A stretch of 64,000 nucleotides of DNA from Bacteroidota bacterium (GTDB lineage Bacteria; Bacteroidota; Bacteroidia; NS11-12g; UBA955), in contig JANXMZ010000055.1 of assembly GCA_025354385.1 (NCBI GenBank), positions 8,350 through 72,349 on the forward strand, in the 5' to 3' direction. This document shows positions 1 to 19,214 of the stretch, piece by piece (position 1 is the first letter of the stretch; each line of letters begins with the position of its first letter). A program made the position numbers and the translations under genes. A model generated the notes under the pieces. It had not been told where the DNA came from and searched no databases. It saw only the letters and a program-made list of their open reading frames with translations.

Positions 1-3000
1 TCTCATCAATTTCTAATGGGTTAGGCAACTGATGCATATCAATTTTCCCATTGGGTGTTAGCGAAAATTGCGCGACCTGCTTAAAAAAAATTGGAATCAT
101 GTAATTAGGCAGTTGCTTCGCTAGAAATATTTTCAATTCATCTTTGTCAATAGCTTGACTGCTTTTGAAATAGGCGACAATACTTTGCTCCCCATTCATA
201 TTTTGCCAAGTTTTAACAATTACAAGATCAATATTTTTATATTTTAAAATATTGTTTTCAATTTCACTCAACTCAATTCTATAGCCCCTAAGTTTTATCT
301 GATTGTCATTCCTGCCAATAAATTCAATATTTCCATCAGAATTCCATTTTCCTATATCTCCTGATTTGTATAAAATATCACCCTCTTTAAAAGGATTAGG
401 AATAAATTTTTCTTTTGTTAAGGTCGGTTGATTTAAATAACCTCGTGTAACACCTCTGCCACCTAAGAGTATTTCGCCTTCAATTCCAATTGGCACCAAT
501 TTACAAAACTTATCTACAATATAGGCTGTGCTATTATTGATTGGTTTGCCGATTGGAATATTTTGCAATTCACTTTCTATAGAATATGTAAGGGAAAAGG
601 TCGTATTTTCTGTTGGACCATAGCCATTAATAATTTTTAATTGCGGATAAAATTTTCTGAGTTTATTGATGTGCACCGGCGATAATTTATCACCGCCTGC
701 TAACAAATAATCCAAATTAGAAAATAAAGAAATATCTGCTTCTATTAATTGATTTAACCAACCAGAGGTAAACCACATAATTTTAACATTATGTTTTTTA
801 ATTTCTTGAGAAAGTAACTTAATATTCAACAAGGTACTTTGAGGACAAATAACCAGCAAACCGCCATTGAGGAGCATACTCCAATATTCAAAAGTTGTTG
901 CATCGAAAGATAAAGCTCCTGTAGCTAAAAGAACAAGACTCGGTTTGAAGTCAATAAAATTGGGATTTACAACCAATCTAATCACATTTTTGTGCTCCAC
1001 CATAACCCCTTTGGGCAGCCCAGTTGAACCAGAAGTATAAATAACGTAGGCCAAATCATTCTCTGTATTTATTTTTTCAATATTATCCTTTGAATATTGA
1101 TTGATAATATTTTTGAATTTATTTAATTCAGTTTCATCTATTACAACTTTGCAATTGCAATCTTGTTTCAAATATTTAATGCGTTCTTCAGGATATTGTG
1201 GATCAATAGGAACATAAGCACCACCGCTCTTCAATAAACCAAGAATAGCAATCATCATCCACTCACTCCTCTCTAATTGAATACCTATTAAATCATTGGC
1301 TACAATTCCATATTCTTTGCGCAAATAATTGCCCAACTGATTGGCCTTTTCGTTTAACAATGTATAGGTCAATACTTCATTTTCGAAGACAATCGCTTTT
1401 TCTTGTGGCGATTTTATTACCTGTTGCTCAAATAAATCAATTATTGTAACCTTCTCAGGCAATATGATGTTTGTATTGTTAAATGTATGCAATAACTCGT
1501 GACGCTCGGCATCACTCATATATTCTAACGCATTTAATGGCAAGTCTGGTTCAAGTAATACGTTTTTTAATAAACTCTCAATATGAGCCGCCATTCTTTT
1601 AATGATTGCGTCATCAGTTAAATAGCCATTATATTCTATCTCTAATGAAATTCCATTATCCTTTTCTTCAAATTTAATTAACAAATCAAGTTCGAGATTA
1701 CTTTTGGTTTGTTCATTATCCTTGCTTTGATAAACAATTTTTACATCATAAAAAGGATTGCTATTTCCAGGGCGTTCAATTGATAAATCTGCCGATAATT
1801 TTTTTAATGAATAGTCTTGGTATTTGATTGCATCTCTGATATTATCTCGAGTAGATTGCAATAATTTGATGAAAGAATCATTGGGTTGGATAAAATTTCT
1901 AATGGCAACCTCAGATTTTGTATCTACAGATTGAAATCCTGTTATAAAATCCTCTTTTCCTGAATATTTATACAATAGGAAAATAGCAAGACAAGGATAT
2001 CCTTCCTTTTCACTCAATTGAAGATGTTCCAACAATTGCTTAAATATTTCCTTTAATTCCTTGTTTATTGGATTTTTGTAACTCTTCGCTAAAAATGCAT
2101 TGTCCAAAGAACGCTTTTTAAGCAGAGGAAATTCGAGTATTGGTAATTCTCCCTCAAAAATTTTAATCCAATACTTTTTTGATTGCTCTATATCAACAAT
2201 TGGGTTCTTTCTATCAATTCCAGGATGTTTATTAATGTGAATGAAACTTTGTAAAGCCTGATTCGGATTTGACACAATATAACGAAGCAGATTTTCGAAA
2301 TCTTGCATCATACGCTCAACGGTTTCCTTTTTGAATAATTGACTGTTATATGACCATTCTAATTGTATTTTACTTTTAGAACCCCAAACGTTTAAATACA
2401 ATTCAAAATTTTCGTATTCACGGGGGTTACTAAAAATATCAAAATTCAATTGATGGAAATCTGTATCACCTTCTATTTCCATATCAATATTAAAAACTAC
2501 TGGAACGAGAGGTATGCGAGACGACTGCCTTGGTATATTCAATTTATTTAGCAATGAACTAAACGTCAATCTCTGATGTTCGTATGCATCCAAAATTGAA
2601 GACTTCCTTGCTTTTAGGTATTCTGGGAAAGATAATTCTGTATTGGGATAACTTCTTATTGGCAATAAACTTACACAATGACCTACAAGGCCATAATAAC
2701 CCGACACCAATTGCCCTGCAGTAGGTAGGCCGATAATAATATCTTGTTGACCAGAGTATGAATGAAGGAATAATTCGAAAGAGGCTAATAGAGTATTAAC
2801 AAAACTGCAACCTTCTTTAATTCCTATATTTTTTAATTCTGCTACAAGTTGGTCATCCAAAACAAAATCTAATCTAGAACTTTTATAAGTTCTTGGAGAA
2901 GGTCTAGGAAAATCTGTTGGTATATTAAGTACTGGTATATTTTCTTTAAACTGTGCCAACCAAAAGTTTTCATTTTCACTATACTCATTGCTATTAGAAA

Positions 3001-3616
3001 AGCTTAATTGTTCTTTGGCATATTCGCTAAATAAATCAGGTTTAGGCAATACAGGGGTAATCTTTTGGCTGTAGGCTGAATAAAACTTGCTTAAATCTTG
3101 AATTAATAATCCTATCGACCATCCATCACAAATAATATGATGTGCTGTAACGGTGAAAAAATATTCTAGACTGCTTAATTTATATAACGAGAATTTAAAG
3201 AGTGGTCCATTTAATAAATCAAAAACATAAAGGACATCATTTAATTTTGATTGCTTAATCGCATTATCAAGCTCTGTTTGATTGTAATGTGAAATATCTT
3301 CAAAGTGATAATTAAATTTAATCTCCTTAAAAACAATCATTTTACTACCATCCTTGGTAAAAGCAGAACGAAGGGATTCATGCCTATTGACAAGTGACTT
3401 CAATGCTAGTTCGAAGGCTTCTAAATTTAACACACCCTCGAATTTAATCGAAAGTGATTCATTAAATGCCCTATTGGCATCATCTCCTCCTAATTTACAT
3501 GAAGTCCATATTTCTAATTGGGGTTCAATTGTATAAAATGAATTTTGAATTTCGGGCCCTTCGAATGGATTAAACTCTATGGCTTCAGAACTGTTAGAAA
3601 TTTTTTCTTTATTCAT
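1..3616 (-). CDS. Non-ribosomal peptide synthetase module, 5' part only (C domain / truncated C-lobe-like insert / A domain); gene continues beyond window start
   Basis: Absent from the ORF track because it has no stop inside the window. My translation of the minus strand from ATG 3616..3614 gives MNKEKISNSSEAIEFNPFEGPEI... No minus-strand ORF fragment is listed in 1..3616, so the frame stays open to the edge. Motifs: TAHHIICDGWS (HHxxxDG, nt ~3105-3135); A cores LAYVIYTSGSTGLPKGV, FDATTFE, NGYGPTENT, YKSGDIG, GRNDNQIKLRGYRIEL, LPNYMIP and NGKID (last ~35 nt). Same layout as the 3635..8341 product. Confidence 0.9.
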   Translation of the reverse strand, partial: MNKEKISNSSEAIEFNPFEGPEIQNSFYTIEPQLEIWTSCKLGGDDANRAFNESLSIKFEGVLNLEAFELALKSLVNRHESLRSAFTKDGSKMIVFKEIKFNYHFEDISHYNQTELDNAIKQSKLNDVLYVFDLLNGPLFKFSLYKLSSLEYFFTVTAHHIICDGWSIGLLIQDLSKFYSAYSQKITPVLPKPDLFSEYAKEQLSFSNSNEYSENENFWLAQFKENIPVLNIPTDFPRPSPRTYKSSRLDFVLDDQLVAELKNIGIKEGCSFVNTLLASFELFLHSYSGQQDIIIGLPTAGQLVSGYYGLVGHCVSLLPIRSYPNTELSFPEYLKARKSSILDAYEHQRLTFSSLLNKLNIPRQSSRIPLVPVVFNIDMEIEGDTDFHQLNFDIFSNPREYENFELYLNVWGSKSKIQLEWSYNSQLFKKETVERMMQDFENLLRYIVSNPNQALQSFIHINKHPGIDRKNPIVDIEQSKKYWIKIFEGELPILEFPLLKKRSLDNAFLAKSYKNPINKELKEIFKQLLEHLQLSEKEGYPCLAIFLLYKYSGKEDFITGFQSVDTKSEVAIRNFIQPNDSFIKLLQSTRDNIRDAIKYQDYSLKKLSADLSIERPGNSNPFYDVKIVYQSKDNEQTKSNLELDLLIKFEEKDNGISLEIEYNGYLTDDAIIKRMAAHIESLLKNVLLEPDLPLNALEYMSDAERHELLHTFNNTNIILPEKVTIIDLFEQQVIKSPQEKAIVFENEVLTYTLLNEKANQLGNYLRKEYGIVANDLIGIQLERSEWMMIAILGLLKSGGAYVPIDPQYPEERIKYLKQDCNCKVVIDETELNKFKNIINQYSKDNIEKINTENDLAYVIYTSGSTGLPKGVMVEHKNVIRLVVNPNFIDFKPSLVLLATGALSFDATTFEYWSMLLNGGLLVICPQSTLLNIKLLSQEIKKHNVKIMWFTSGWLNQLIEADISLFSNLDYLLAGGDKLSPVHINKLRKFYPQLKIINGYGPTENTTFSLTYSIESELQNIPIGKPINNSTAYIVDKFCKLVPIGIEGEILLGGRGVTRGYLNQPTLTKEKFIPNPFKEGDILYKSGDIGKWNSDGNIEFIGRNDNQIKLRGYRIELSEIENNILKYKNIDLVIVKTWQNMNGEQSIVAYFKSSQAIDKDELKIFLAKQLPNYMIPIFFKQVAQFSLTPNGKIDMHQLPNPLEIDE
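1520..2200 (-). other. Truncated condensation-domain C-terminal-lobe-like insert between C and A (module in partial gene); approximate bounds
   Basis: Own translation: KKYWIKIFEGELPILEFP...CLAIFLLYKYSGKEDFITG...LEIEYNGYLTDDAIIKRMAAHIESLL...PLNALEYMSDAERHELLHTFNNT. This resembles the post-HHxxxDG half of a C domain, but it is shorter and has no HHxxxDG. Confidence 0.55.
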
Positions 3617-3634
3617 TTAATACAGTTATTAAGC

Positions 3635-6600
3635 CTATTGAATTTCATTTAATACTTTTTGAAGTATTTGAGCGAATTCAATATTATTGGGCGGCATAAT
3701 CATCTCATCGTGATCGCCATTAACAATGTGTCTAACAATTCCCTTGGCCGCATAAGGTTTCCACCCTAAATGGATAGGATCTTCCTGATAGTATACTTTA
3801 TCAATAGATACAAAAAGATTGATAAGACCATCATAAGGCTCCAATTTGTATTTTTTTATAGCAATTGAATTCAATTCTATTGCCTTATCTATGTTTATGA
3901 AGGTTTCACTCAACTCTGATTTAATATGAATTCCAAATTTTGATTTCAAAGAGATGAATCGCAATTTCCAAAGCAATCCATAATATTCAAAAGTTTTTAG
4001 CGGACTTCTATAAATGGATTTTAAACTAAACCAAAGTATGGTTATAAATTGAGAAAATTGTCTGTTTAGTTTTTCGCTTAATGTATGAGATCTTTTGGCT
4101 TCATCAATGTTAAAATCAAAAATTGAAAGGGTCTTGACGTCCTTGCCCATATTTTTCAATTGTTTTGCCATTTCAAATGCGATAAGCCCTCCAGATGAGT
4201 GACCTGCTAATGCATACGGACCATCGGGATTTTGCAATAGCATCTCCGAAATGTAATAATTTGCCATCTTTTCTATGGAATCCAAAGGTTCATCAATACC
4301 ATCAATTCCTAAAGCCTGCAAGCCATACACAGGTTGATCTTCGTCTAAATATTTGCTTATGTGGTGAAAAACAATAACACCTAAACCACCTCCATGAACA
4401 ATATACAATGGCACTTTATTACCAGATGTTTTTATGGGAACCAAACATTTCCATTTTCGGGTCTTATCTTCTTTTTTGAGCAAGTTGGCCAACTTTTCTA
4501 TTGAAGAGTATTCAAATAAGGATGACATTGGCAATCTAATGCCAGTTTCATTTTCAATTCTAATAACTACCTTTATTGCAATTAGAGAATGTCCACCTAA
4601 TTCAAAAAAGTTTGCGGACTTATCAATATTTTCTATGGGTAGCAAGTCACTCCAAATTTTAGCAACCAACATCTCCTCTTTTGTTGACGATAAATTAAGA
4701 TGATCTGATTGAATAGGTTGAGTTTTTAATTCAATTTTACTTCTATCTATTTTACCACTCGGTAATAAAGGAATTAAATCTAATTGTTCATATTGCGAAG
4801 GCACCATATAACTTGGCAATTTAGAAGACAAAAATGCTCGAAGAAGATTAGTATCTATCATTTCATCTCCCACAAGATAAGCAACAAGTGATTGCTCATT
4901 TTCTGCTTCCCCTTTGGATGTTACCAAAACATTTAATATACCTTTAAATTGCAGTATCGCTTTTTCTATTTCACCGGCTTCTACCCTATAACCTCTTATT
5001 TTTAATTGAAAATCTTTTCTTCCTATAAAAACAATTCTACCATCTGCCAGCCAATAACCCAAATCACCGGTTTTATAAACCCTCTCATTTTTACGAAAAG
5101 GATTCTTTACGAATTTTTCTTTCGTTAATTCCTCGTTGTACAAATAGCCCCTTGCAACACCTTTACCTCCAATGTATAATTCCCCAGGAATTCCTATTGG
5201 TTGAATTTGGTAAAACTCGTCTAAAATATATGTTTGTGTATTCGAAATTGGTTTTCCAATTGGAATCACCTCCTCATCTTTCTCGACCTTGTTAGCTATA
5301 GTGCCGACTGTTGTTTCTGTTGGTCCATAATGATTTACAATTTCAATTTTATTAGTTCGTTCTTTAATTTTAGAAATGTCATTTCCAATTATTTTATCAC
5401 CACCAACAATTAATAACCTCAATCTTGAAGCACTGCAAAAAATATTAAAACTTTCTTCATCAGAAAGTATTAAATTAAGATGTGAAGGCGTTATTTTTAT
5501 AAAAGTTACGTTGTTATTCGAAATATAGTACGCTAATTCTTTTGGTGATTTTACTAATTCGTTAGGGATTACATAAAGCGCACTGCCAGATAATATTGAA
5601 CCAAATAAACTGGTATTAACACCATCAAAAGTAAAACTCGACAACAAAAGAGTGCCTTCATTATTTGCAATTTGAAACTCTGAAATAAACCAAGAATTAT
5701 AATTAATAATATTTCTATTTTCAACCATAACACCTTTTGGCTGTCCTGTGGAGCCAGAGGTGTATATTACATACGCAAGATCATTGGGAGTATTAATTTT
5801 TAGTAAATTATTCTTTGAATAATTATCGGCCAAAACTTCAAATTTTAAAAGTTCCTTTTCATCAATCACCACTTTACATTTGCTATTCTCTTTTAAATAG
5901 GCAATGCGCTCTAGGGGGTACTCCGGATCAATGGGAACATAAGCACCACCACTTTTCAAAACTGCTAAAATGGAAATTACTTGCCATTCACTTCGCTCAA
6001 GTTGAATCCCAATCAAATCATCAGGTTGAATTTCATATGTTTCCCGAAGATAGGCTCCAAGTTGGTTTGAGTGTTCATTTAACCCTGTATAATCAAGCTT
6101 TATATCTTTATAAACAACGGCTAGATTTTTTGGTGTTTTTAAAACTTGCGACTCAAATAATTCTACAATAGTGGTGTCTTCTGCAAAACCTACAAGATTA
6201 TTATTAAACGATTCAAGTATGTGATTTCGTTCTTCAACATTTATATATTCTAAGTAATTTAATGGTTGGTCTGGTGAATTCAACAATGCTTCCATTAATC
6301 CTTGAAAATGATACCCCATTTTTTCAATAACGGACTTATCAAATAATGTTTGGTTGTATTCTAGCTCCAAAACTGTTGAATTTTTTGAACCCAAGAATCT
6401 AAAAATTAAATCCAATCCGGAATTTACTGACTTAATTTTATGGTCAGTTCCTTGAACTTCTATTTTAATTGAATACAACTGCGGGCCATATTCGATTTGG
6501 CGTCTATTTAATTCAGTTTCAATATCGGCAACGGTAAAATCACCGTGCTTTAAACCCTCTCTTAAATTATTGGCAGATGATTGAAACAAGCTTAGAAAAG

Positions 6601-8341
6601 AATCATTGGGTTGAATAAAATTCCTTAATGCAATTAAAGATTCAGAACTGAATAATTTAATACCAGTAATAAAATCTTTCTCGCCTGAATATTTATATAG
6701 TAATAAGTTACATAAACAAACGTAACCTTCTTCCAAGCTTATAGAATAGTGGTCTAACTTTTCTTTAAAAGATAAAAGCAATGATTCACTTATTTTAAAT
6801 TGAACCAAAGAACTTTCAAATTTATTTTCTAAAGAAGTAGCTCTTCTAATTGGCAATTCTAAAACTGGAATTTTATCAGAGTACTTGTACAGCCAATATT
6901 TTTTAGATATTTCATAATGGGCTTCAGGATTATAGGCATTTCCTATAAATTCATTAAAACTATTTAATAATTTTTCTAGCTTCTGATTAGGATCGGAGAC
7001 AATTCTCTTTAACAATTGATTGAAAGTTTGAATCATTTCTTCTACTTTCTCTGGCTTAAATAATTGGCTATTATAAGACCATTCCAATTGAATATTCTTT
7101 TCACTGCCCCATACATTCAATGAAAATTCGAAATTTCGAAATTCTTTTTTATTGCTAATGGTTTTAAAAGTGAGTTGATCAAAATTAACACCATTGTCCA
7201 TTTCCATATCTACGTTAAAAACCACTGGTACCAAAGGAACTCTTGCAGGATCTCTTGAAATTTTTAAATTTTTTAGTAAACTTCCAAAAGTAAATTGCTG
7301 ATGATCATAGGCATCCAGAATTGCTAATTTTCTTTCTTTAAGATATTCAATAAAACTTAATGCCTCATTAATGTTACTTTTTAAGGGCAATAAATTTACG
7401 CAATGTCCAACCAAATTTAATCTACCTGAAGCAGATTGGTCAGCTGCAGGTAATCCTATCACAATATTCTTTTGTCCTGATATTTTTGCAATAAAAATTT
7501 CAAAAACTGCGAGCAATGTATTCACTAGGCTACAACCTTCTTTAATCCCTATTTTTTTTATTGATAGGGCAATTGTTTCCTCTAGTTTTGAATCAATGCG
7601 CTTACTTTTAAAGGTTCTATTTGTAGGTCTTGGGTAATCTATTGGCAGATTAAGGTTAGGGTTGATCTGCTTGTGTTGATTTACCCAATAGTCAATATTA
7701 TTTCTATAAATAGTCCCGTTCACAAATTCTTTCTGCTCATGCGCATATACGCTGAATAAATCAGGGGCTTCCAAATCAGGAAGTAAGTGCTTTTTAAAGG
7801 CAGAATACAATTTACTTAAATCTCGTAAAATAATACCCAATGACCAGCCATCACAAATTATGTGGTGCGCATTGAAAATAAAATAATGTTCGTCCTCATT
7901 TAATTTATAAAGTCTAAATTTAAATAGAGGCCCATTAACAAGGTCGAATACATGAAGTGCGTCTTCTAGCGTATATTGTTCGAGCAGACTTGCTACATCG
8001 CTGTTCGATTTTTGAGATAGGTCCTCAAACTTATAATCAAAAGCTACTTCCTTAAAAACAAGCATTTGTGTGCCATCTGAGTTAAATGCAGAGTGTAATG
8101 CTTCATGTCTGTATACAACAGCTAATAGAGCTTCCTCAAAAGACTTAACATCAAATTTTCCATTAAAATGGAGAGAGATTGATTCATTAAAACCTCTATT
8201 TGCATCATCTCCACCTAAAGCACATGAAAGCCATATTTCCAATTGCGATTCTGTGGCAGGGATAATAGAAACTATTTCGGCACCCACAAACGGATTAAAT
8301 TCGGTAGGATTAACAGATTGGGGATAATCCTTTGAACTCAT
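3635..8341 (-). CDS. Non-ribosomal peptide synthetase, terminating module: C / truncated C-lobe-like insert / A / PCP / thioesterase
   Basis: 1568-aa ORF. NAHHIICDGWS (aa 158-167). A cores: LAYVIYTSGSTGQPKGV, FDGVNTS, NHYGPTETT, YKTGDLG, GRKDFQLKIRGYRVE, LPSYMVP, SGKIDR. PCP FFELGGHSL (Ser1252). TE GHSSGG (Ser1382) and GDHDEM near the C-terminus. The ATG overlaps the upstream stop as ATGA (8338-8341). Confidence 0.95.
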   Translation of the reverse strand: MSSKDYPQSVNPTEFNPFVGAEIVSIIPATESQLEIWLSCALGGDDANRGFNESISLHFNGKFDVKSFEEALLAVVYRHEALHSAFNSDGTQMLVFKEVAFDYKFEDLSQKSNSDVASLLEQYTLEDALHVFDLVNGPLFKFRLYKLNEDEHYFIFNAHHIICDGWSLGIILRDLSKLYSAFKKHLLPDLEAPDLFSVYAHEQKEFVNGTIYRNNIDYWVNQHKQINPNLNLPIDYPRPTNRTFKSKRIDSKLEETIALSIKKIGIKEGCSLVNTLLAVFEIFIAKISGQKNIVIGLPAADQSASGRLNLVGHCVNLLPLKSNINEALSFIEYLKERKLAILDAYDHQQFTFGSLLKNLKISRDPARVPLVPVVFNVDMEMDNGVNFDQLTFKTISNKKEFRNFEFSLNVWGSEKNIQLEWSYNSQLFKPEKVEEMIQTFNQLLKRIVSDPNQKLEKLLNSFNEFIGNAYNPEAHYEISKKYWLYKYSDKIPVLELPIRRATSLENKFESSLVQFKISESLLLSFKEKLDHYSISLEEGYVCLCNLLLYKYSGEKDFITGIKLFSSESLIALRNFIQPNDSFLSLFQSSANNLREGLKHGDFTVADIETELNRRQIEYGPQLYSIKIEVQGTDHKIKSVNSGLDLIFRFLGSKNSTVLELEYNQTLFDKSVIEKMGYHFQGLMEALLNSPDQPLNYLEYINVEERNHILESFNNNLVGFAEDTTIVELFESQVLKTPKNLAVVYKDIKLDYTGLNEHSNQLGAYLRETYEIQPDDLIGIQLERSEWQVISILAVLKSGGAYVPIDPEYPLERIAYLKENSKCKVVIDEKELLKFEVLADNYSKNNLLKINTPNDLAYVIYTSGSTGQPKGVMVENRNIINYNSWFISEFQIANNEGTLLLSSFTFDGVNTSLFGSILSGSALYVIPNELVKSPKELAYYISNNNVTFIKITPSHLNLILSDEESFNIFCSASRLRLLIVGGDKIIGNDISKIKERTNKIEIVNHYGPTETTVGTIANKVEKDEEVIPIGKPISNTQTYILDEFYQIQPIGIPGELYIGGKGVARGYLYNEELTKEKFVKNPFRKNERVYKTGDLGYWLADGRIVFIGRKDFQLKIRGYRVEAGEIEKAILQFKGILNVLVTSKGEAENEQSLVAYLVGDEMIDTNLLRAFLSSKLPSYMVPSQYEQLDLIPLLPSGKIDRSKIELKTQPIQSDHLNLSSTKEEMLVAKIWSDLLPIENIDKSANFFELGGHSLIAIKVVIRIENETGIRLPMSSLFEYSSIEKLANLLKKEDKTRKWKCLVPIKTSGNKVPLYIVHGGGLGVIVFHHISKYLDEDQPVYGLQALGIDGIDEPLDSIEKMANYYISEMLLQNPDGPYALAGHSSGGLIAFEMAKQLKNMGKDVKTLSIFDFNIDEAKRSHTLSEKLNRQFSQFITILWFSLKSIYRSPLKTFEYYGLLWKLRFISLKSKFGIHIKSELSETFINIDKAIELNSIAIKKYKLEPYDGLINLFVSIDKVYYQEDPIHLGWKPYAAKGIVRHIVNGDHDEMIMPPNNIEFAQILQKVLNEIQ
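3647..4429 (-). other. Thioesterase (alpha/beta hydrolase) domain of the 3635..8341 NRPS
   Basis: aa ~1305-1565: LYIVHGGGL, GHSSGG nucleophile elbow, C-terminal GDHDEM histidine motif. Confidence 0.8.
6242..6910 (-). other. Truncated condensation-domain C-terminal-lobe-like insert between C and A (aa ~478-700)
   Basis: KKYWLYKYSDKIPVLELP...CLCNLLLYKYSGEKDFITG...VLELEYNQTLFDKSVIEKMGYHFQGLMEALLNSPDQPLNYLEYINVEERNHILESFNN. This parallels the second half of the preceding full C domain (DYWVNQH..NLPIDYPRP...LLAVFEIFIAKISGQKNIVIG...IQLEWSYNSQLFKPEKVEEMIQTFNQLL). It lacks the N-lobe and HHxxxDG. Confidence 0.6.
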
Positions 8342-11300
8342 TTAAACTCGGTAATATTTATTTGTAAAAACTTTCCAGGCTGGTTGGGGTCATTAATAAA
8401 CCAAGCTGGGTCTCCATTTCGGTCTCTCCCTAATTTTGCACCTGGAATTGGCGGTATCATGGAATTAGTATTTTTGTTTTCTGAAATTTTTGGCGCATAG
8501 AAACCTCCTTCAATGAGTGCCTGAATTGATTTCCTGAAGGCGTCTATAATTTGATTAATTTCATTATCGGTATGAGCCTCTGTAATGAAACATGGGAATC
8601 CATCCCAAATATGTATTCCTTCAAGTCTTAAAGCAGAAAATAATAGTTCACTATAAGGTATTTCTTCTTTGTATTTTATTTTCCATAATGATCCATATTG
8701 AGCTGCATAAATTGGTAAACCATGTTTATTAAATTCTTCATTGAGGTTATTGGCCAAATAATTGGTTTTTTGGGTAATGCCTTCTTGCAATGCAGTTCCT
8801 TTAGATTTCATATAGCTTAATGAAGCCTTTGCAGCAGCCAAAGCTAAGGGATGCCTCACAAAAGTTCCAGCAAAATAGGTAACCCCAATTTCTGGATAAG
8901 ATTCATCACCATATTGCCAAAATCCTCCATCTAACGCATCCATAAATTCTTTCTTTCCTGCGATAGCACCAATTGGAATACCAGCACCCACCACCTTACC
9001 ATATGAAGCTATATCCGCCTTTATACCAAACAAGGCTTGCGCCCCACCGGGATGCATTCTAAATCCGGTAATTACTTCATCAAATATTAATGCCGTTCCT
9101 GAATTCAGCGTAATTTTCCGTACTTCTTTTAAGAAATCAATAGGAGTAAACTCTGGACGCCTACTTTGAACAGGTTCTACCAACACAGCAGCTAATTCAT
9201 GAGCTCTTTCTTTGATAATATTTAAACTTTCTTCTGTTCCATAGTCCAGAATAAGCATATTCTGAACAGCTTCTTGCATAATACCTGGAGCTGCCGGAAA
9301 TGATTTAAGTTTTTTCGTGCCTCTTACAATTACTTCATCAACAATGCCATGGTATGAACCATTAAAGGCAACTATCAGTGATCTTCCAGTTACCGTTCTG
9401 GCTATTCTCATGGTTCCTAATACAGCCTCAGAGCCGGTGCTACAAAGTGCGGACCTATCATGGCCAGTTAAATCGCAAATAAGCGAACAAACTTCACCTG
9501 CCAATTCATGCTGTGGTCCAACCTCATAGCCATTTTCTATTTGATTAAGCAACGCCTTTTTAATAATTTCTGGCTGATGACCTAACATGGAAGAGCCAAA
9601 ACCGTTTAAAGCATCAATATACTCGTTGCCATCAATATCCCACAAACGGGAACCTTTTGATTTATTGACAACCAAAGGATATACAATTTCTTTCGTTAAA
9701 GGTTTAAAGCCCGACACAACCCTTGGATCAGACATCGTACTTCTATTCTTTTGAGCGTATTGCTTACTAAGTTTCGTTTTATCATTGTACTTAACAGTAA
9801 ATTCTTTTAGAAAGGCAGATTGTTTTTCGGTTAGTTCTTCTTTTTGTTTTTCAATTCTTGCGGTTGCTCCAAAAGGTTTGCTAATTTCAGCGGCTTCTTC
9901 AGGACTTAAGTCCGACAAAACTTTAGCACTATTTACATTTACTGGATGACTTTGAGAATTTAAAATATTTCCTGTTGTGGAATTATTTTGAAGCATTGCC
10001 AATTGATTCGATAGCATTTGAATCTGTTGTGCTATTAAATTTATAGGCGATTCATTAACTGGTCCATTTGTTTGAACAGGGGCAATGACATTGGTATTAT
10101 AATATGAATCTTGTGGCAAATTGGCATCTAAATAATCTATTAATAAGGCAGGTGTTGCATAACCTTCATTTAGTTGTCTAAATGTTATTGGCAACCCAAA
10201 CTCTTTTTTAAATGTTATTGCTACTTGTGTTAATAAAAGTGAATCAAGTCCAATTTCTAAAAAACTCATGGTTGGTGAGATGTTCTCCATTTCTAATCCA
10301 GAAGCATCCTCTAGTAATTCTTTAATCCTCTTAAACAGTGTCTGTTTTCTCATTGGTTGAATGTTTTGCTCTGAAGAATTTTCAGCATTATTTAATTCTT
10401 CAAATATAAAATTATTTTTATTGCTAATTGTATCAATATTGTCATTTAAGTTGATGTTGGGTTCAACCCAACATTTTTTTCTATCAAATGCATAGGTAGG
10501 GATATCCATTTTAAGTCGCTTTTGACCATTATAAAATGAATCCCAGTCTGGCTCTATGCCACAAAGCCACATATTGCCAAGAGCCTTTAATATAGAGTGC
10601 ATCTCAGATTTTAAATCACTCCTTTCCAGGCTGGAATAAACATTCACTTTTTTAGCGCTAATTTGTTGTTTGGCTAACGTTGAAGTAACATTCCCTGGGC
10701 CAACTTCTAAAAATAGAGCATTGTCAAATTCAGATATAGTATCAAGAGCCTCAGAAAATCGAACTGTCTTTCTCAAATGCTCCGCCCAGTAATTAACATC
10801 TGTTGCTTGTTCATCTTTTAACCAGGTTCCTGTTACTGTAGAAATAATTGGCTTTTGTGGCTTATTAAGTTTTATTGTTCCAACCATTTTTTTGAATTCA
10901 GGAACAACAGGATCCATCATTGCAGAATGAAATGCATGACTCGTTAACAATACTCGATTCGGAATTTCTAAACCATCTAATTTTTTAGAAAACATTGCAA
11001 TACTCTCGTCATTGCCAGCCACTACACAAAGTTTCTTATTGTTAATTGCTGCCAAAGAAAGGTCTGATGGCAAAATAGCATTTAATTCTACTGAATCAAG
11101 TCTAACAGATAGCATACTTCCCCCAGGCAATTGACTAACGAGTTTTCCTCGTGTCGCTACCAATTTAAGCGCATCATCTAATGAGATTACACCAGCAAAA
11201 TGAGCTGCAACAAATTCACCTATACTATGTCCAACAAAAATGGTTGGTTGAATACCCCAACTCAACCAAAGTTTAGTAAGGGCATATTCAGTAATAAAAA

Positions 11301-14300
11301 TGGCTGGCTGAGTATAATAGGTATTCTTTAATTGATCCTCTGTTTTTTGATTTTGAGATTCTGGAAATATGACCTTTCTGATATCTGTTTTTAGAAAAGG
11401 TTCGAGAATAATGGCACATTCATCAATGGCATTTCTATAAATTTCTTGATCTTTATACAATTCATATCCCATATAAAGATATTGTGCACCTTGACCTGGA
11501 TATGAGAAAATAACTTCACTTGGTAATTCTGTTAATATTTTTGAGTCTGCTCCAGAAATATTTTCCAAAATCAATTGGTTTAAAAAATCTTCAGATGAAC
11601 TAGCCAACAAGAACCTTCTATGATTAAAACTTTCTCTAAATTTATTCAATGAATAAGCCATATCCGCAATATTAGTATGGTTGTTTTTACGAATATGATT
11701 GGCCAATAGGTGTGCATATTTTTCCCTGCTTTCCAAGGATTTGGCCGACCATTTAAATAATTGAAGGCCCTTTACTTCATCAGAAAATTTAACTTTATTC
11801 TCAAATTCTTCCAAAACAACATGAACATTTGTACCTCCTACTCCAAATGAACTTACGCCTGCTATTCTTGTAAGATCAGATACCCAATTACGGTGCTTTT
11901 CATTAACATAGAATGGGCTGTTTTCGAAATCAATATGGTGATTTGCTTTGGTAAAGCCAATAGATGCGGGTATTTCTTTCTTGTACAGAGCTAAAGCTGT
12001 TTTGATTAATCCTGTAACACCTGCAGCGGCTGTTAAATGACCAATATTGCCCTTTACTGAGCCTATGGCACAATATTGATTTTTAGCCTGATTACCAAAA
12101 GCCATCCTTAAACCTTCTAATTCTATGGGGTCTCCCAAAGGAGTACCTGTACCATGTGCCTCAATGTATTGAATATCCGAAGCGGCAACTTTTGCATCTT
12201 CAAGGGCCATCACAATTGCACCTGCTTGACCCAAAGCGCTGGGAGCTGTAAAACTACCTTTACCACTTCCGTCATTATTAATACCAACACCTTTTATTAC
12301 TGCAAAAACTGTATCACCATCCTTTATAGCAGATTCCAAGTTTTTCAATAATACCACACCTGCACCATCACTAAAAACAGTTCCCGTGGCAGTATCATCA
12401 AAAGGTCTGCAATGACCATCTGAGCTAAACATAGCACCTTCCTGATAAATATGTCCACTATTAATTGGAGCTGTAATGCTAACTCCGCCTGCAATTGCAA
12501 TGTCGCAATGTCCATTTCTAATACTTTCTACAGCTTGTGTAACAGCTAATAAAGATGTAGAACATCCAGAATAAACACTCACTGCTGGCCCTTTTAAATT
12601 AAGTTGGTAGGCCGTTCTAGATGCAACATAATCCTTCTCATTTACAGACATTACCTGAAAACTACCAACTTGACTTATTAATTTTTGATTTGAATGAACA
12701 TTATTAATGTAATATGTATTGTTTCCAGAACCCGCATAGACACCTATGATTCCATCATATTTTTGTGGAACATAACCCGTCTTTTCAAGTACTTCCCATG
12801 AAATTTCCATGAATACTCTTTGCTGAGGGTCCATTAAACTGGCTAATTTTGCGTTAATGCCAAAGAAATTTGCATCAAATTTATCTGCGTCATCAATTAT
12901 GCCTCTTGCAGCTACATATTCACTATCATTCTTAATTTGAGATGGTATTGAATTATCTATTTCTTCTTTTGAAAAGAATTTAATGGTTTCTTTACCTTGT
13001 TTTAAAATTTCCCACAAAGAATCAATATCTGGGGCTCCAGGAAATTTTCCTGCCATGCCAATAATGGCGATATCTTCACTTTGATAGTTACTCTTATAAG
13101 TTGATTTTATATTAACTGATTGAGATTTTGCTGGTTCTAAAAGTTGGGATATTCCACCTATTGTAGGAAATTGATAGAGCTTTGTAATTGGCAAATAATA
13201 GTTGTATCGTATTTTTAGATTTGATACAGTTTTTTGAGCAAGTAATGAATTGCCTCCTAACTCAAAGAAATTATCATCTAACCCTATTTTATGAATTTGC
13301 AATATTTCTGTCCAAATATCTGCTATATTTTCTTCAATTCTTGAATTGGGTTTTTTGTATAAGGAATTTAATTCTGGTCGTTCAAAATCCGGCTTTGGTA
13401 ATAGTTTTCGATCTATTTTACCACTAGAGGTTTTAGGAAATTCCTCCATCCAAACAAATGCTGATGGGATCATATATTCTGGGAGTAATTTCATGAGAGA
13501 ATCTCTAACAAAACCAGTATCTTTAACTAACGAATCACTAATTAAGTATGCAACTAGCATTTTTTGACCTGGTATATCTTCTCTGGCAACTACAGCTGAT
13601 TGTTTTATACCTGTTTGTTGAGTTAATACAACTTCTATTTCTCCTAATTCAATTCTATTACCTCTAATTTTGACTTGATCATCTTTTCTTCCTAAAAATT
13701 CAATTTCGCCTTCATTATTAAAGGTTGCCAAATCACCCGTTTTATAAAGCCTTAGTATTCCTTTGTCTGGATGTTGCCAATCAATAAATTTTTCCGCAGT
13801 CAAGTTGGGTTGAAATAAATATCCTTCTGCAAGACAATCACCAGCAATACACAACTCACCTATCTCGCCAATTTCTCTGATTTTTAATTCTTCATCTAAT
13901 ATATAGATTGAAACATTTTCAATGGATTTTCCAATATTGGGCAATGCTGGCCAAGAAGTAGGTTCACCTATTAATCTCTTTTCAGTAACTACGTGGCATT
14001 CAGTAGGGCCATATTGATTATACAGCACTGCGTTATCTAAGTTTTTGAAGAACTCTACTATTTGTGGAGTAATCTTTAATTGTTCACCTGCCGTCATAAT
14101 TTCTTTAAGACTGATAGGATACTTTGAAAAAGAAACAGCCATTTCAGCCAAATACTGCAAGGCAACAAATGGAAGAAATATTCTGGCTATATTTTGATTT
14201 TCAATAATTTCAAGAACCTTGAGTGGATCTAATCTTTGTCTATCGTCAATTAACACTAAAGTTCCACCAGTAGTTAAAGTTGCAAAAATTTCTTGAAAGG

Positions 14301-14892: not shown

Positions 14893-14955
14893 TATTTAAA
14901 TGTTTGATTATTTGAATATTAATAGATTACAGAAATATGAAGAAGTATTAATTAC

Positions 14956-14963
14956 AAAATTAT
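14956..14963 (-). promoter_or_regulatory. Candidate Bacteroidota -7 box (TAATTTTG, TAnnTTTG consensus) upstream of NRPS/PKS operon
   Basis: Plus-strand caaaatta, which reads TAATTTTG on the minus strand. It lies ~64 nt upstream of the ATG at 14892. I saw no convincing -33 TTTG, and the motif is expected by chance roughly once per 1.5 kb in this composition. Confidence 0.25.
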
Positions 14964-15189
14964 TGCAGTAGCAATACTGCCTTAAAAAAGCAAAACAGTG
15001 TTTAATCATTTGTGTTTTAGTTATTTAAAATATAAAAGTTCGACTCGTTTTAGTGTCTAACTGTATATATTTCATTGCAATAATAACTAATTTATTAAAA
15101 AAATAAAAACTTTGAAAATAATTTTGAACTTTTTTTAAGTTATATAAGTCTTTTTTTTAGGATCTTACCCCATTAATGAGATTGATTTA

Positions 15190-15723
15190 TTAATTATTAA
15201 ATTGACATTTTAAACCCAGAAATACGACAGGTCCATTATATCTCTGATAAGTATTATTCTCATAATAGGCCCCTGTAAGGCCATAATCATAACCCAATTT
15301 GAGATTTGCAATGATTTTTTTTCCTAAATTAATTTGACCACCGATGGTTTGAATACTCGATAAATAAGTGTGATTCTTAATATTACTATGGTAAAGTGTT
15401 GGATTCAGAGAAATAGCAGGTGAATAAAAAACACCCCATTTATTTTCAAAATAACCAACTTCTGGAAATGCAATAAAACTGAGGTAATCTGCTTGTATGA
15501 TGCTTCCTTTTGATCTTTGGCTATAAAACATAGATGTTTCAATATAAAAATACTTATTCAATTTACTACCTATCGTAAAACCATATATAGGTTGAAAACT
15601 ATTGGGGTTAATTCCAATCTTATTAACACCTGTTACATATCCAATTTCTTGACTTTCTGCTAATTGAGCATTGTTTAAAAATGTTATAATTACTAGGTAA
15701 ATACGCAAATGAGATTTGATCAT
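15190..15723 (-). CDS. Small outer-membrane beta-barrel (OmpW/porin-family-like) protein
   Basis: 177 aa. N-terminal signal peptide (LVIITFLNNAQLAES). Alternating aromatic/hydrophilic beta-strand pattern. C-terminal ...FLGLKCQFNN, with an aromatic residue near the end typical of OMP barrels. Confidence 0.55.
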   Translation of the reverse strand: MIKSHLRIYLVIITFLNNAQLAESQEIGYVTGVNKIGINPNSFQPIYGFTIGSKLNKYFYIETSMFYSQRSKGSIIQADYLSFIAFPEVGYFENKWGVFYSPAISLNPTLYHSNIKNHTYLSSIQTIGGQINLGKKIIANLKLGYDYGLTGAYYENNTYQRYNGPVVFLGLKCQFNN

Positions 15724-16305
15724 CTTTCAAAATTAAGATATTACTATCTATTAAATAATAATGAATTTAATTGATTAAGTATATCCACTTAAAATTTGCT
15801 TATTATGTTTAAATTTACAAATAATTCTCACTTAAAAAATTGGAGTTGGCCCAATGTTAAGTTGTTATTAAAATATTAATAACTTTTGTTTTTAAAATAT
15901 TGACTGCCAGTTTATTGTATATTTTTTTCAAATTATTAGACATATTTTATGTTTCTAGCATTTGGTAAATAAAAAAATAGAAGTATAATTGCACAATGAT
16001 TATTAAGTATAAAATACTATGTGTATTAATACTCATTAAACTTTTAACTAAAACGAACTTTTGCATGATTACTAATACTAAAACACAAACATATGATACA
16101 CGGCTACTTGTCTTCAAAACAAATTCTTTCATTTAATAATAGCACTTATTATTTCAAAATTTTAATTCAAAACCTATTAAACGGCTTTGAATATCCCTTG
16201 TTAAATTATTCTTTAATACCAGTGAATTCCAAAAATACATCAATATTAAACTAAACAAAATAGAAACTAACAGAACTTAATTCGATCAAAACTAAAACAC
16301 AAAAC

Positions 16306-17883: not shown

Positions 17884-17902
17884 TTTTAAGATAACCTCAT
17901 AC

Positions 17903-17936
17903 AAAAAAAAAGCACTCAATGGAGTGCTTTTTTTTT
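17903..17936. terminator. Bidirectional rho-independent terminator between convergent genes
   Basis: A9, then stem AGCACTC, loop AATG, stem GAGTGCT, then T9. Confidence 0.8.
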
Positions 17937-17954
17937 GTATTCAAAACTTTTAAA

Positions 17955-19187: not shown

Positions 19188-19214
19188 AGAGAAATAGTTT
19201 AATTTAAAATCGTT

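What the first reader, a model, noticed from the sequence alone, without database searches (positions are those of the whole stretch)
1520..6910. Orphan half-condensation domain wedged between a full C and the A domain, conserved in two modules
Both C-starting synthetases have a complete C domain of ~450 aa with HHIICDGWS. In each, an extra ~220-aa segment follows before the A domain: nt 6242-6910 in one gene and ~1520-2200 in the other.

The extra segment begins with the KKYW..xPxLExP motif that normally follows HHxxxDG. It contains an LL.YKYSG.xDFITG block equivalent to the usual LL..ysg..divIG. It ends with the canonical C-domain tail (LE.EYN..L.......I.+M..H...L.......P..PLN.LEY....E...L...FNN) that normally abuts an A domain.

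The segment has no N-lobe and no catalytic histidines, and it is shortened in the middle. The architecture therefore reads C(N-lobe)-C(C-lobe)-C(C-lobe remnant)-A.

This looks like the scar of a recombination inside a C domain that moved an acceptor-lobe-plus-A unit. That is the same break point exploited in engineered XUC exchange units. Its retention in two diverged paralogous modules suggests it is tolerated, or has a structural or docking role.
Basis: partly seen in the sequence, partly recalled or inferred. Interest (0 to 1): 0.65.

Follow-up and report, generated by a model that had tools for sequence, protein, structure and literature searches.

The report
Orphan condensation half-domain before adenylation domain
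Two neighbouring peptide-synthetase genes of an uncultured Bacteroidota bacterium each carry, between a complete condensation domain and the adenylation domain, a non-catalytic half condensation domain; it most likely arrived from another synthetase by recombination and was kept as a structural support for the adenylation domain.

Summary
In both genes (g2 = 3635..8341, g3 = ..3616, minus strand) a complete C domain with HHIICDG is followed by a 223-aa segment (c'; nt 6242-6910 and 1517-2185). This segment matches only the C-terminal half of Pfam Condensation (50.7 and 68.4 bits).

AlphaFold predicts c' as a C-lobe. Its two crossover elements that normally reach the N-lobe are truncated (floor loop 18→6 residues, latch 26→13). 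The c'+A-core model superposes on solved C-A didomains (TM 0.83, rmsd 3.9 Å). The full C does not take that position (rmsd ~21 Å).

c' is not a copy of the adjacent C-lobe. It is closer to elongation-type lobes of multimodular NRPSs, whereas C, T and TE belong to a Bacteroidota C-A-T-TE family that lacks c'.

All four lineages found carry c' in both paralogues. It evolves two to three times faster than its flanks, and its tree groups by genome rather than by orthologue.

The closest known things are the N-terminal C*/ADA domains. An internal position after a working C domain was not found described.

The same architecture recurs independently in three other NRPSs of the survey panel. Verdict: a real feature, a new variant of a known kind, of moderate interest.

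The parts
8338..14892 (-). g1: hybrid PKS, AMP-binding(FAAL-like)-ACP-KS-AT-ACP-aminotransferase (2184 aa). It is the presumed supplier of a beta-amino fatty acyl donor to the C domains of g2 and g3.
   Evidence: Pfam domains. The same gene precedes the synthetases in L009, L011, the P0176 contig and Spirosoma L095.
3635..8341 (-). g2: single-module NRPS with architecture C-c'-A-T-TE (1568 aa).
   Evidence: Translation and Pfam.
6962..8302 (-). g2 complete C domain (aa 14-460) with catalytic HHIICDG at aa 159-165 (nt 7847-7867).
   Evidence: PF00668, 335 bits for the whole protein, best stretch aa 27-458. 50% identical to the C domain of Spirosoma C-A-T-TE P0206. pLDDT ~85-95.
6911..6961 (-). 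Poorly conserved tether between the full C and c' (aa 461-477).
   Evidence: pLDDT below 50 at aa 464-470. Variable length and sequence across the family.
6242..6910 (-). g2 c': orphan C-terminal lobe of a condensation domain (aa 478-700). It has no N-lobe and no HHxxxDG, and its floor loop and latch are truncated.
   Evidence: PF00668 partial hit at profile 297-445/456, 50.7 bits. Aligns to own C-lobe aa 218-458. The AF2 secondary-structure order equals that of the C-lobe, with the floor loop reduced from 18 to 6 residues and the latch from 26 to 13 residues. The c'-A model matches C-A didomains at TM 0.83.
4727..6241 (-). g2 C-A linker and A domain (aa 701-1205).
   Evidence: PF00501 aa 729-1067 and PF13193 aa 1124-1197.
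3647..4666 (-). g2 T (aa 1226-1288) and TE (aa 1311-1565) domains.
   Evidence: PF00550 and PF00975. They are closest to the T and TE domains of the C-A-T-TE family.
1..3616 (-). g3: paralogous C-c'-A-T-TE synthetase, cut by the window end (1205 of 1567 aa lie in the window).
   Evidence: Translation. The full gene is on L009 at 14726-19429. It equals P0166.
2246..3577 (-). g3 complete C domain with HHIICDG at nt 3122-3142.
   Evidence: PF00668, 365.9 bits for the whole protein, best stretch aa 45-457; motif position.
1517..2185 (-). g3 c': orphan C-lobe (aa 478-700).
   Evidence: PF00668 partial hit at profile 297-444/456, 68.4 bits. 39-40% identical to g2 c' with no gaps.
20..1516 (-). g3 C-A linker and A domain (aa 701-1199).
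   Evidence: PF00501 aa 729-1061.

Best explanation
c' is a non-catalytic, isolated C-terminal (acceptor-side) lobe of a condensation domain. It is an internal counterpart of the C*/ADA domains known at the N-termini of some adenylating modules.

Origin (inferred). An ancestor of the form PKS + C-A-T-TE, as still found in Spirosoma, acquired a foreign stretch by recombination. That stretch consisted of a C-lobe, the C-A linker and probably at least part of the A domain, and it came from an elongation-type (LCL-like) module. The donor junction lay at the N-lobe/C-lobe hinge just upstream of motif C4 (YW), and the recipient junction lay at the end of the resident C domain. The gene was then duplicated into g2 and g3.

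Function (inferred). c' occupies the canonical C-lobe position on the A-core and keeps the native C-A linker and interface. It therefore stabilises or tunes the A domain, as C_Asub, C* and ADA domains do elsewhere. The catalytic C domain hangs from c' on a ~20-residue flexible tether and must meet the T domain by movement.

Having no N-lobe partner, c' has lost most of the two crossover elements (floor loop and latch) and its catalytic-tunnel motifs. It evolves fast under fold-level constraint only. It has also been homogenised between the two adjacent paralogues, most simply by old gene-conversion events.
For: Shown by tool results:
- The segment matches only the C-terminal half of the Condensation profile and has no His motif.
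- c' is confidently folded (pLDDT 72-94) with the C-lobe order of secondary-structure elements. Its floor loop is 6 residues against 18 in the full C, and its latch is 13 residues against 26 with the strand lost. The loop definitions come from PMC11186497.
- A c'-A-core model built from the 8 family sequences alone superposes as one body on solved C-A didomains: Txo1 6p4u at TMq 0.83, rmsd 3.9 Å over 676 columns; LgrA ~0.8; McyB 0.77; SrfA-C 0.74. A-only structures give 0.51-0.55.
- In the C-c'-A model, the full C plus A do not fit the canonical arrangement (rmsd ~21 Å, TMq 0.37-0.41).
- Mosaic ancestry. The full C, T and TE score 1.3-1.5 bits per residue against the C-A-T-TE family and 0.5-0.95 against multimodular NRPSs. 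c' shows the reverse: 85-112 bits for its own lobes against up to 165 bits for foreign lobes. Kimura distances from c' are 2.58 to own lobes, 2.65 to C-A-T-TE lobes and 1.83-2.32 to multimodular lobes. The clade of own plus C-A-T-TE lobes excludes c' in 99.7% of bootstraps.
- Polarity. 61 single-module relatives of 1330-1400 aa lack c'. Spirosoma has the same PKS followed by a c'-less C-A-T-TE.
- Retention. All 8 family proteins, from 4 lineages with both paralogues, have c' at 222-229 aa with intact reading frames.
- Rate. Orthologues g2 and P0153 are 66-67% identical in C and 60% in A, but 24% in c'.
- Concerted evolution. C-lobe, A and T support the orthologue split at 99-100%. c' instead supports {g2,g3} at 80% and {P0153,P0175,P0177,P0203} at 98%.

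From the literature:
- Deleting the isolated C-lobe (C*) of ACVS abolishes module-1 function, and the ADA domain is required for adenylation (PMC7884236).
- The C-terminal subdomain alone modulates A-domain specificity (PMC11546977; bioRxiv 10.1101/2021.08.23.457306).
Against: - No experiment bears on this protein. The support role is inferred by analogy.
- AF2 has seen many C-A didomains, so the canonical placement of c' may partly reflect that prior. Model 2 has only moderate confidence (pLDDT 73.9). No coordinates or PAE were available, so the interface could not be inspected.
- c' is the least conserved part of the protein (23-29% identity between window proteins and other lineages), which would also fit a merely tolerated spacer.
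- Another A domain in the same cluster (A-T-TE, 887 aa) has no c', and Kranz et al. found that adding a C_Asub impaired one A domain.
- Evidence that the A domain came with c' is weak. The best multimodular A domains are only 3-6 points more identical than the best C-A-T-TE A domains, and A-domain similarity tracks substrate.
- The trees are NJ trees on simple distances, long branches are present, and the comparison panel was selected by similarity to c'.
- No DNA-level trace of recent gene conversion was found.
Confidence: 0.6

Rival explanations
1. Neutral recombination scar. c' is a leftover that folds well enough not to disturb the enzyme, has no role of its own, and is slowly decaying.
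For: It is the fastest-evolving region: 24% identity against 60-67% in flanking domains of orthologues. Catalytic motifs are lost and loops deleted. Untrimmed C-c'-A cases in other NRPSs (one clearly young, P0110) show that such duplications arise readily.
Against: It is kept at nearly constant length (222-229 aa), with no frameshift or stop, in both paralogues of four lineages. Orthologous flanking domains across those lineages have diverged to 43-82% identity. There are zero indels between g2 and g3. pLDDT is high. A useless 670-nt segment would be expected to be deleted or to break up. N-terminal analogues (C*/ADA) are experimentally required.
Confidence: 0.2
2. Docking or oligomerisation element. 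The exposed face of c' that normally binds an N-lobe mediates contact between the two synthetases g2 and g3 (c':c' or c':C) or with another cluster protein. This would couple two TE-terminated single modules.
For: c' sequences group by genome rather than by orthologue (sliding windows), as expected if the two copies must match each other or a shared partner. The two genes always occur as an adjacent pair in the c'-bearing clade. The c'-less Spirosoma relative has a single synthetase.
Against: Gene conversion explains the same pattern without any interaction. The elements that bind a partner lobe (latch, floor loop) are the ones that were deleted. Orphan lobes at the N-termini of unrelated multimodular NRPSs show the same trimming without any paired paralogue. 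No interaction could be modelled with the tools at hand.
Confidence: 0.12
3. Local tandem duplication. c' arose by out-of-register recombination within the same gene, so that the resident C-lobe was duplicated, and it then diverged beyond recognition. P0110 appears to be a young example of this process.
For: In P0110 the extra lobe is 53% identical to the adjacent lobe, which shows the mechanism exists. Fast evolution of c' could erase family-specific signal and cause long-branch artefacts.
Against: c' scores 85-112 bits on its own family's lobes but up to 165 bits on foreign elongation lobes. Mean identity of c' is 28% to LCL-type lobes against 20% to own lobes. The own plus C-A-T-TE clade excludes c' in 99.7% of bootstraps, and a joint clade appears in only 9%. 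Drift does not bring a sequence closer to a different subfamily.
Confidence: 0.08

Closest known systems
C* domain of ACV synthetase and ADA (adenylation-activating) domain of fungal alpha-aminoadipate reductases (Iacovelli et al. 2021, PMC7884236; Kalb et al. 2015 as cited there)
   Same: It is about half the size of a C domain and is modelled as an isolated C-lobe. It has no N-lobe and no HHxxxDG. Early motifs are lost and C6/C7 are partly kept. It sits directly N-terminal to an A domain. The known examples are required for the activity of that module.
   Different: C*/ADA domains sit at the protein N-terminus of an initiation module or reductase. Here the lobe is internal and is preceded on the same chain by a complete, apparently active C domain. 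Sequence relatedness to ACVS C* was not tested. Function here is untested.
Truncated C* domains annotated at the start of bacterial loading modules (for example ThdA of thermoactinoamide, PMC7253712)
   Same: It is an orphan C-terminal part of a C domain in front of the A domain and is presumed inactive in condensation. It has been suggested to influence A-domain selectivity. At least 15 multimodular NRPSs in my panel begin this way, starting at the same YW motif, and 8 of those aligned share the latch deletion.
   Different: The position differs (N-terminal against internal). The window's c' is not specially related to these lobes in sequence (21% mean identity against 28% to complete LCL-type lobes), so the shared trimming looks convergent.
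XUC exchange unit (C_Asub-A-T-C_Dsub), an engineering concept of Bozhüyük et al. 2019 as described in bioRxiv 10.1101/2021.08.23.457306
   Same: The N-terminal boundary of c' lies at the linker between the N- and C-terminal subdomains of a C domain. The C_Asub stays with its A domain.
   Different: XUC swaps replace the resident C_Asub. Here the resident C_Asub was kept and the incoming one added, which gives two C-lobes in a row. The downstream T-TE belong to the recipient lineage.
C-c'-A modules in other NRPSs found here (P0132 three modules, P0110 one module, P0027 at the end of the protein)
   Same: A complete C domain is followed by a second C-lobe that begins at YW and, in P0132 and P0110, is followed by an A domain.
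   Different: These are independent events, with 20-23% identity to the window's c'. The c' of P0110 is young (53% identical to its neighbouring lobe) and untrimmed. The c' lobes of P0132 are old but untrimmed. None is annotated or, as far as I could find, described.

Membership tests
Catalytic NRPS condensation domain (PF00668; LCL/DCL/starter types) | Two CAT-like lobes (N-lobe plus C-lobe, ~450 aa) | tested here: not met
   c' is 223 aa. Pfam covers only profile positions ~297-445 of 456. The AF2 secondary structure equals a single lobe.
Catalytic NRPS condensation domain (PF00668; LCL/DCL/starter types) | HHxxxDG active-site motif (C3) | tested here: not met
   There is no HH in aa 478-700 of g2 or g3. 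The motif is present only in the upstream full C domain (aa 159-165).
Catalytic NRPS condensation domain (PF00668; LCL/DCL/starter types) | Homology to the C-terminal lobe, including motifs C4, C6, C7 and the C-A linker | tested here: met
   Pfam E-values of 1.5e-13 and 6.4e-19. BLASTP against own C-lobe gives E 7e-12. The 8-sequence profile scores 145-165 bits on complete C-lobes.
C*/ADA domain (isolated C-lobe preceding an A domain) | Isolated C-lobe fold of roughly half C-domain size without an N-lobe or His motif | tested here: met
   The definition comes from PMC7884236.
C*/ADA domain (isolated C-lobe preceding an A domain) | Immediately upstream of, and packed against, the A domain | tested here: met
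   c' ends in the canonical C-A linker motif (P..PLN.LEY...E...L..FNN), and the A domain starts ~30 aa later. The c'-A-core model superposes on C-A didomains at TM 0.83, rmsd 3.9 Å. This rests on a prediction only.
C*/ADA domain (isolated C-lobe preceding an A domain) | Located at the N-terminus of an initiation module or stand-alone enzyme | tested here: not met
   c' is preceded on the same polypeptide by a complete C domain (aa 14-460).
C*/ADA domain (isolated C-lobe preceding an A domain) | Required for adenylation or module activity | not testable with these tools
   This needs deletion constructs and adenylation assays.
XUC-type unit (break at the C_Dsub/C_Asub linker) | [quoted passage not shown] | tested here: met
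   c' begins 2-3 residues before the C4 'YW'. That is the same point at which N-terminal and internal orphan lobes of other NRPSs begin.
XUC-type unit (break at the C_Dsub/C_Asub linker) | C_Asub and A domain share a foreign ancestry relative to the upstream C_Dsub | tested here: inconclusive
   c' is clearly foreign to the resident C domain. The affinity of the A domain to multimodular NRPSs is only marginally higher than to the C-A-T-TE family.
Non-catalytic full-length C-like domains (for example the X domain of glycopeptide NRPSs) | Both lobes present, with a degenerate active site | tested here: not met
   Only one lobe is present.

The most novel reading that the evidence does not exclude
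Orphan C-lobe plus A-domain units may be a natural, recurrent exchange unit of NRPS evolution, able to land behind an intact C domain. In this clade the retained lobe would have been co-opted as a matching pair of interaction modules that couples two TE-terminated single-module synthetases, which would explain why the two c' copies evolve in concert. Convergent loss of the latch and floor loop would then be a general signature of condensation lobes that have been released from their N-lobe partner.
Probability: 0.15. Interest if true: 0.7.

Novelty: new variant of a known kind. Interest (0 to 1): 0.5.

Why it matters
NRPS engineering depends on knowing which pieces can be moved. Here nature appears to have moved an acceptor-side C-lobe (with its linker and probably its A domain) behind a working C domain, and then kept it through a gene duplication and the divergence of at least four lineages.

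- This supports the view that the C-lobe/A-core interface is the co-adapted unit, as the XUC, 'extended gatekeeping' and C*/ADA work proposes.
- It suggests that a redundant lobe is tolerated, or even needed, when that interface would otherwise be broken.
- The convergent truncation of the latch and floor loop in independent orphan lobes gives a simple sequence signature for recognising such non-catalytic lobes in genome mining. At present they show up only as unexplained partial 'Condensation' hits or long C-A spacers.
- The gene cluster itself (beta-amino fatty acid PKS, two or three TE-terminated single modules, and cupin/JmjC oxygenases) is uncharacterised.

Tried and rejected
- A word-indexed homology search with c' alone found nothing: 351 candidates, none significant. 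This was uninformative rather than negative, because the parent protein is in that collection.
- An exact-peptide scan of GTDB genomes with g2 c' found nothing. With the two-sequence profile it found only ordinary, longer C-lobes.
- The exhaustive representative search with the c' profile was swamped by multimodular NRPSs, whose many ordinary C-lobes sum to high scores. It gave no c'-specific census, but it supplied a useful comparison panel.
- A single-sequence search of PDB sequences gave only a weak TycC hit.
- Codon-level comparison of g2 and g3 found no recent gene-conversion tract. Identical-codon frequency at conserved residues is 0.58 in c' against 0.44-0.52 elsewhere, and the longest shared run is 17 nt.
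- One Biopython bootstrap timed out and was redone with custom NJ code. A first lobe tree had NaN distances and was redone.
- Descent of c' from the latch-less N-terminal orphan lobes was rejected: mean identity is 21% against 28% to complete LCL-type lobes.
- An X domain or other full-length C-like domain was rejected because only one lobe is present.
- A chance match was rejected on the E-values.
- Literature searches for an internal partial C domain between C and A found no description. The library lacks most subscription journals, so this is not proof of absence.
Full report
WHAT IS THERE

The left end of the window carries three co-directional genes on the minus strand.
- g1 (8338..14892) is a hybrid PKS: AMP-binding, ACP, KS, AT, ACP, class-III aminotransferase.
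- g2 (3635..8341, 1568 aa) follows it.
- g3 starts at 3616 and runs off the window.

On a 112-kb metagenomic contig that holds identical proteins (L009), g3 is 1567 aa. It is followed by an A-T-TE protein (887 aa), a PPTase and two cupin_8/JmjC-like proteins. g2 and g3 both read C - extra segment - A - T - TE.

The full C domains are normal: PF00668 gives 335 and 366 bits for the whole proteins, and HHIICDG sits at aa 159-165.

The extra segment (c') is aa 478-700 in both proteins. In window coordinates this is nt 6242-6910 and nt 1517-2185. Scanned alone, it matches only the C-terminal half of PF00668 (positions 297-445 of 456), at 50.7 and 68.4 bits. It aligns end to end with aa 218-458 of the neighbouring C domain at 20% identity, E 7e-12.

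FOLD

An AlphaFold2 model of g2 aa 1-1130 used 50 aligned sequences, of which only the 8 family members cover c'. Its mean pLDDT is 86.9. c' scores 72-94, and the tether at aa 464-470 falls below 50.

The secondary-structure elements of c' repeat those of the C-lobe of the full C domain, one for one, with two exceptions.
- The segment between the strands at 556-562 and 569-575 is 6 residues. The full C has 18 residues there (299-316, including a short helix).
- The segment between the strands at 625-631 and 645-651 is 13 residues. The full C has 26 there (380-405, including a strand).

By the published definition (floor loop between β8 and β9, latch between β10 and β11; PMC11186497), these are the two crossover elements through which a C-lobe grips its N-lobe. 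The assignment of strand numbers is mine.

A second model contained only c' plus the A-core (aa 465-1130) and used the 8 family sequences alone, so that canonical C-A proteins could not supply co-variation. Its pLDDT is 73.9. It superposes as one rigid body on solved C-A didomains:
- Txo1 6p4u: TMq 0.83, rmsd 3.9 Å over 676 columns
- LgrA: about 0.8
- McyB-C1A1: 0.77
- SrfA-C: 0.74
- A-only structures: 0.51-0.55

By contrast, when the C-c'-A model is aligned to the same structures through its full C and its A domain, the rmsd is ~21 Å and TMq is 0.37-0.41. In the models, then, c' and not the catalytic C holds the canonical platform position on the A domain. This is a prediction, and AF2 has a prior for that arrangement.

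DISTRIBUTION AND POLARITY

A whole-protein search found six further proteins that cover g2 end to end (P0153, P0174-P0177; 1572-1577 aa) plus a fragment (P0203). All carry c' at 222-229 aa.

Their loci are syntenic: PKS, two C-c'-A-T-TE genes, PPTase, and two or three cupin_8 genes. In one MAG the first synthetase is split into three ORFs. Four lineages therefore carry c' in both paralogues.

The organism of the window is an uncultured Bacteroidota bacterium. Its ribosomal protein S1 is 82% identical to that of a Chitinophagaceae MAG, and the sequence occurs in rock and sediment metagenomes.

In contrast, 61 relatives of 1330-1400 aa (Spirosoma and others) are C-A-T-TE without c'. In Spirosoma the same PKS is followed by a single c'-less synthetase. 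That synthetase's C domain is 50% identical to the C of g2. c' is thus a derived insertion in a C-A-T-TE scaffold.

ORIGIN

I built local HMMs of each part of the family and scored a 270-protein panel. The full C, T and TE are much closer to the C-A-T-TE family (1.3-1.5 bits per residue) than to multimodular NRPSs (0.5-0.95).

c' behaves the other way round. Its own neighbouring lobes score 85-112 bits, C-A-T-TE lobes 70-94 bits, and elongation-module lobes of multimodular NRPSs up to 165 bits.
- Kimura distances from c' are 2.58 to own lobes, 2.65 to C-A-T-TE lobes, and 1.83-2.32 to multimodular lobes.
- In NJ bootstraps, own plus C-A-T-TE lobes form a clade that excludes c' in 99.7% of replicates. 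c' joins them in only 9%.
- Mean identity over shared columns is 28% to LCL-type lobes and 20% to own lobes.

c' is therefore not a tandem copy of the resident lobe. It came from another kind of C domain.

Whether the A domain came with it is unclear. The best multimodular A domains are only 3-6 identity points closer than the best C-A-T-TE A domains, and A-domain similarity follows substrate specificity.

c' starts 2-3 residues before motif C4 (YW). This is the inter-lobe hinge, the same site used for XUC fusions.

THE SAME THING ELSEWHERE

Screening ~900 C-lobes of the panel for lobes without an N-lobe gave two groups.

(a) At least 15 multimodular NRPSs begin with an orphan lobe that starts at the same (K/R)xYW(L/M) motif. 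These correspond to the 'truncated C*' loading modules known from the literature (PMC7253712).

(b) Three other proteins have a complete C followed by a second lobe.
- P0132 has three such modules. The c' copies are 45-92% identical to one another and 23-27% identical to the adjacent lobes.
- P0110 has one. Its c' is 53% identical to the adjacent lobe, so it is a young duplication.
- P0027 has c' at the end of the protein.

An alignment shows that eight of the N-terminal orphan lobes and the P0027 lobe have lost the latch at exactly the same place as the window's c' (17-19 residues) and have a shortened floor loop. The young orphans (P0055, P0006, P0110) and the old P0132 lobes keep both. Because these groups are not specially related to one another, the trimming looks convergent.

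EVOLUTIONARY BEHAVIOUR

c' is the fastest-evolving part of the protein. Orthologues g2 and P0153 are 66-67% identical in C, 60% in A, 64-69% in T and TE, but only 24% in c'.

Even so, g2 and g3 show no indel across c', and the family varies by only a few residues in length.

Unexpectedly, c' groups by genome rather than by orthologue.
- Paralogues within one genome: g2-g3 are 39% identical and P0153-P0175 are 52% identical.
- Orthologues between the window organism and other lineages are 23-29% identical.
- NJ bootstraps give the orthologue split {g2,P0153,P0203} 99-100% support in C-lobe, A and T.
- In c' that split is absent from both the NJ tree and the best-supported bootstrap splits. Instead {g2,g3} has 80% support and {P0153,P0175,P0177,P0203} has 98%.
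- Sliding windows place the anomalous region at about aa 440-700, and in L011 up to about aa 800.
- Shared derived blocks such as RNFIQPNDSF in g2 and g3 argue against a mere compositional effect.
- No recent conversion tract is visible in the DNA.

Old, repeated gene conversion between the adjacent paralogues is the simplest reading. Selection for matching copies is the alternative.

MECHANISM (INFERRED)

The closest known elements are the C* domain of ACV synthetases and the ADA domain of fungal alpha-aminoadipate reductases. These are isolated C-lobes in front of an A domain, without a His motif. Their deletion abolishes the activity of that module or adenylation (PMC7884236).

Work on McyB and GxpS shows that the C-terminal subdomain and the C-A interface alter A-domain activity and specificity.

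I therefore propose that c' serves as the structural partner of the A-core, preserving a co-adapted interface and linker. The catalytic C is tethered to it by ~20 flexible residues and reaches the T domain by movement. I put this at about 0.6.

The rivals are a neutral scar (0.2), a docking element between g2 and g3 (0.12), and a diverged local duplication (0.08).

NOVELTY

Orphan C-lobes upstream of A domains are known at N-termini. I found no description of one retained internally behind a working C domain, of its mosaic ancestry, of the convergent loss of latch and floor loop, or of concerted evolution between paralogues. The searched library is incomplete. I rate the finding as a new variant of a known kind, of moderate interest.

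Noticed in passing
window 1-14892 and L009 1-24707: This is an uncharacterised gene cluster. A FAAL-ACP-KS-AT-ACP-aminotransferase PKS (the architecture expected for a beta-amino fatty acid starter) is followed by two single-module NRPSs that each end in their own TE. In this organism a third A-T-TE protein without any C domain or c' follows, then a PPTase and 2-3 cupin_8/JmjC-like proteins. Several TE-terminated single modules in a row is an unusual logic, and the product is unknown.
   Followed up: partly
window 1517-2185 and 6242-6910; L011, L013: The c' segments of the two adjacent paralogues are more alike within a genome than between orthologues (39-52% against 23-29%), while the flanking C, A and T domains follow orthology with 99-100% bootstrap support. 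This suggests gene conversion limited to about aa 440-700 (up to about aa 800 in L011), or selection for matching copies.
   Followed up: partly
panel proteins P0077, P0078, P0105, P0147, P0141, P0113, P0073, P0125, P0027: Orphan C-lobes at the N-termini of unrelated multimodular NRPSs, and one at a protein C-terminus, have lost the latch (17-19 aa) at the same alignment position as the window's c' and have a shortened floor loop. Complete C domains and young orphan lobes keep both elements. This looks like convergent trimming.
   Followed up: partly
panel proteins P0132 (aa 1395-1637, 2713-2956, 4035-4277), P0110 (aa 2317-2555), P0027 (aa 5289-5502): The C-c'-A architecture occurs independently in other NRPSs. 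It ranges from a young duplicate (53% identical to its neighbouring lobe in P0110) to old copies propagated by module duplication (P0132).
   Followed up: partly
window 16306-37331: A polysaccharide biosynthesis locus lies directly beside the PKS-NRPS cluster. It includes a Bac_transf priming transferase, six glycosyltransferases, an asparagine synthase and a Wzz/GNVR tyrosine-kinase-like protein. The Bac_transf and the first glycosyltransferase are also adjacent to the cluster in L011, and glycosyltransferases flank the Spirosoma and L013 loci.
   Followed up: no
window 15190-15723 (minus strand): A 177-aa ORF without any Pfam match lies just upstream of the PKS. An ORF of similar size (187 aa, no Pfam hit) is in the same place in L011.
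   Followed up: no
L013 4786-9512 and L014 955-5681: In one MAG lineage the g2-type synthetase is called as three ORFs (194, 1065 and 285 aa). The same split is seen in two independent assemblies, so it is either a real disruption or split of the gene, or a shared sequencing artefact.
   Followed up: no
window 56537-60919 (+), 26064-27440 (-), 33609-34904 (-), 29319-30443 (-), 46092-47003 (-): Several sizeable ORFs, including one of 1460 aa, have no Pfam match at E <= 1e-5.
   Followed up: no
window 8338-8341 and 3617-3634: The g1 stop overlaps the g2 start (coordinates overlap by 4 nt), and g2 and g3 are separated by only 18 nt. This suggests translational coupling of the three synthase genes.
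   Followed up: no
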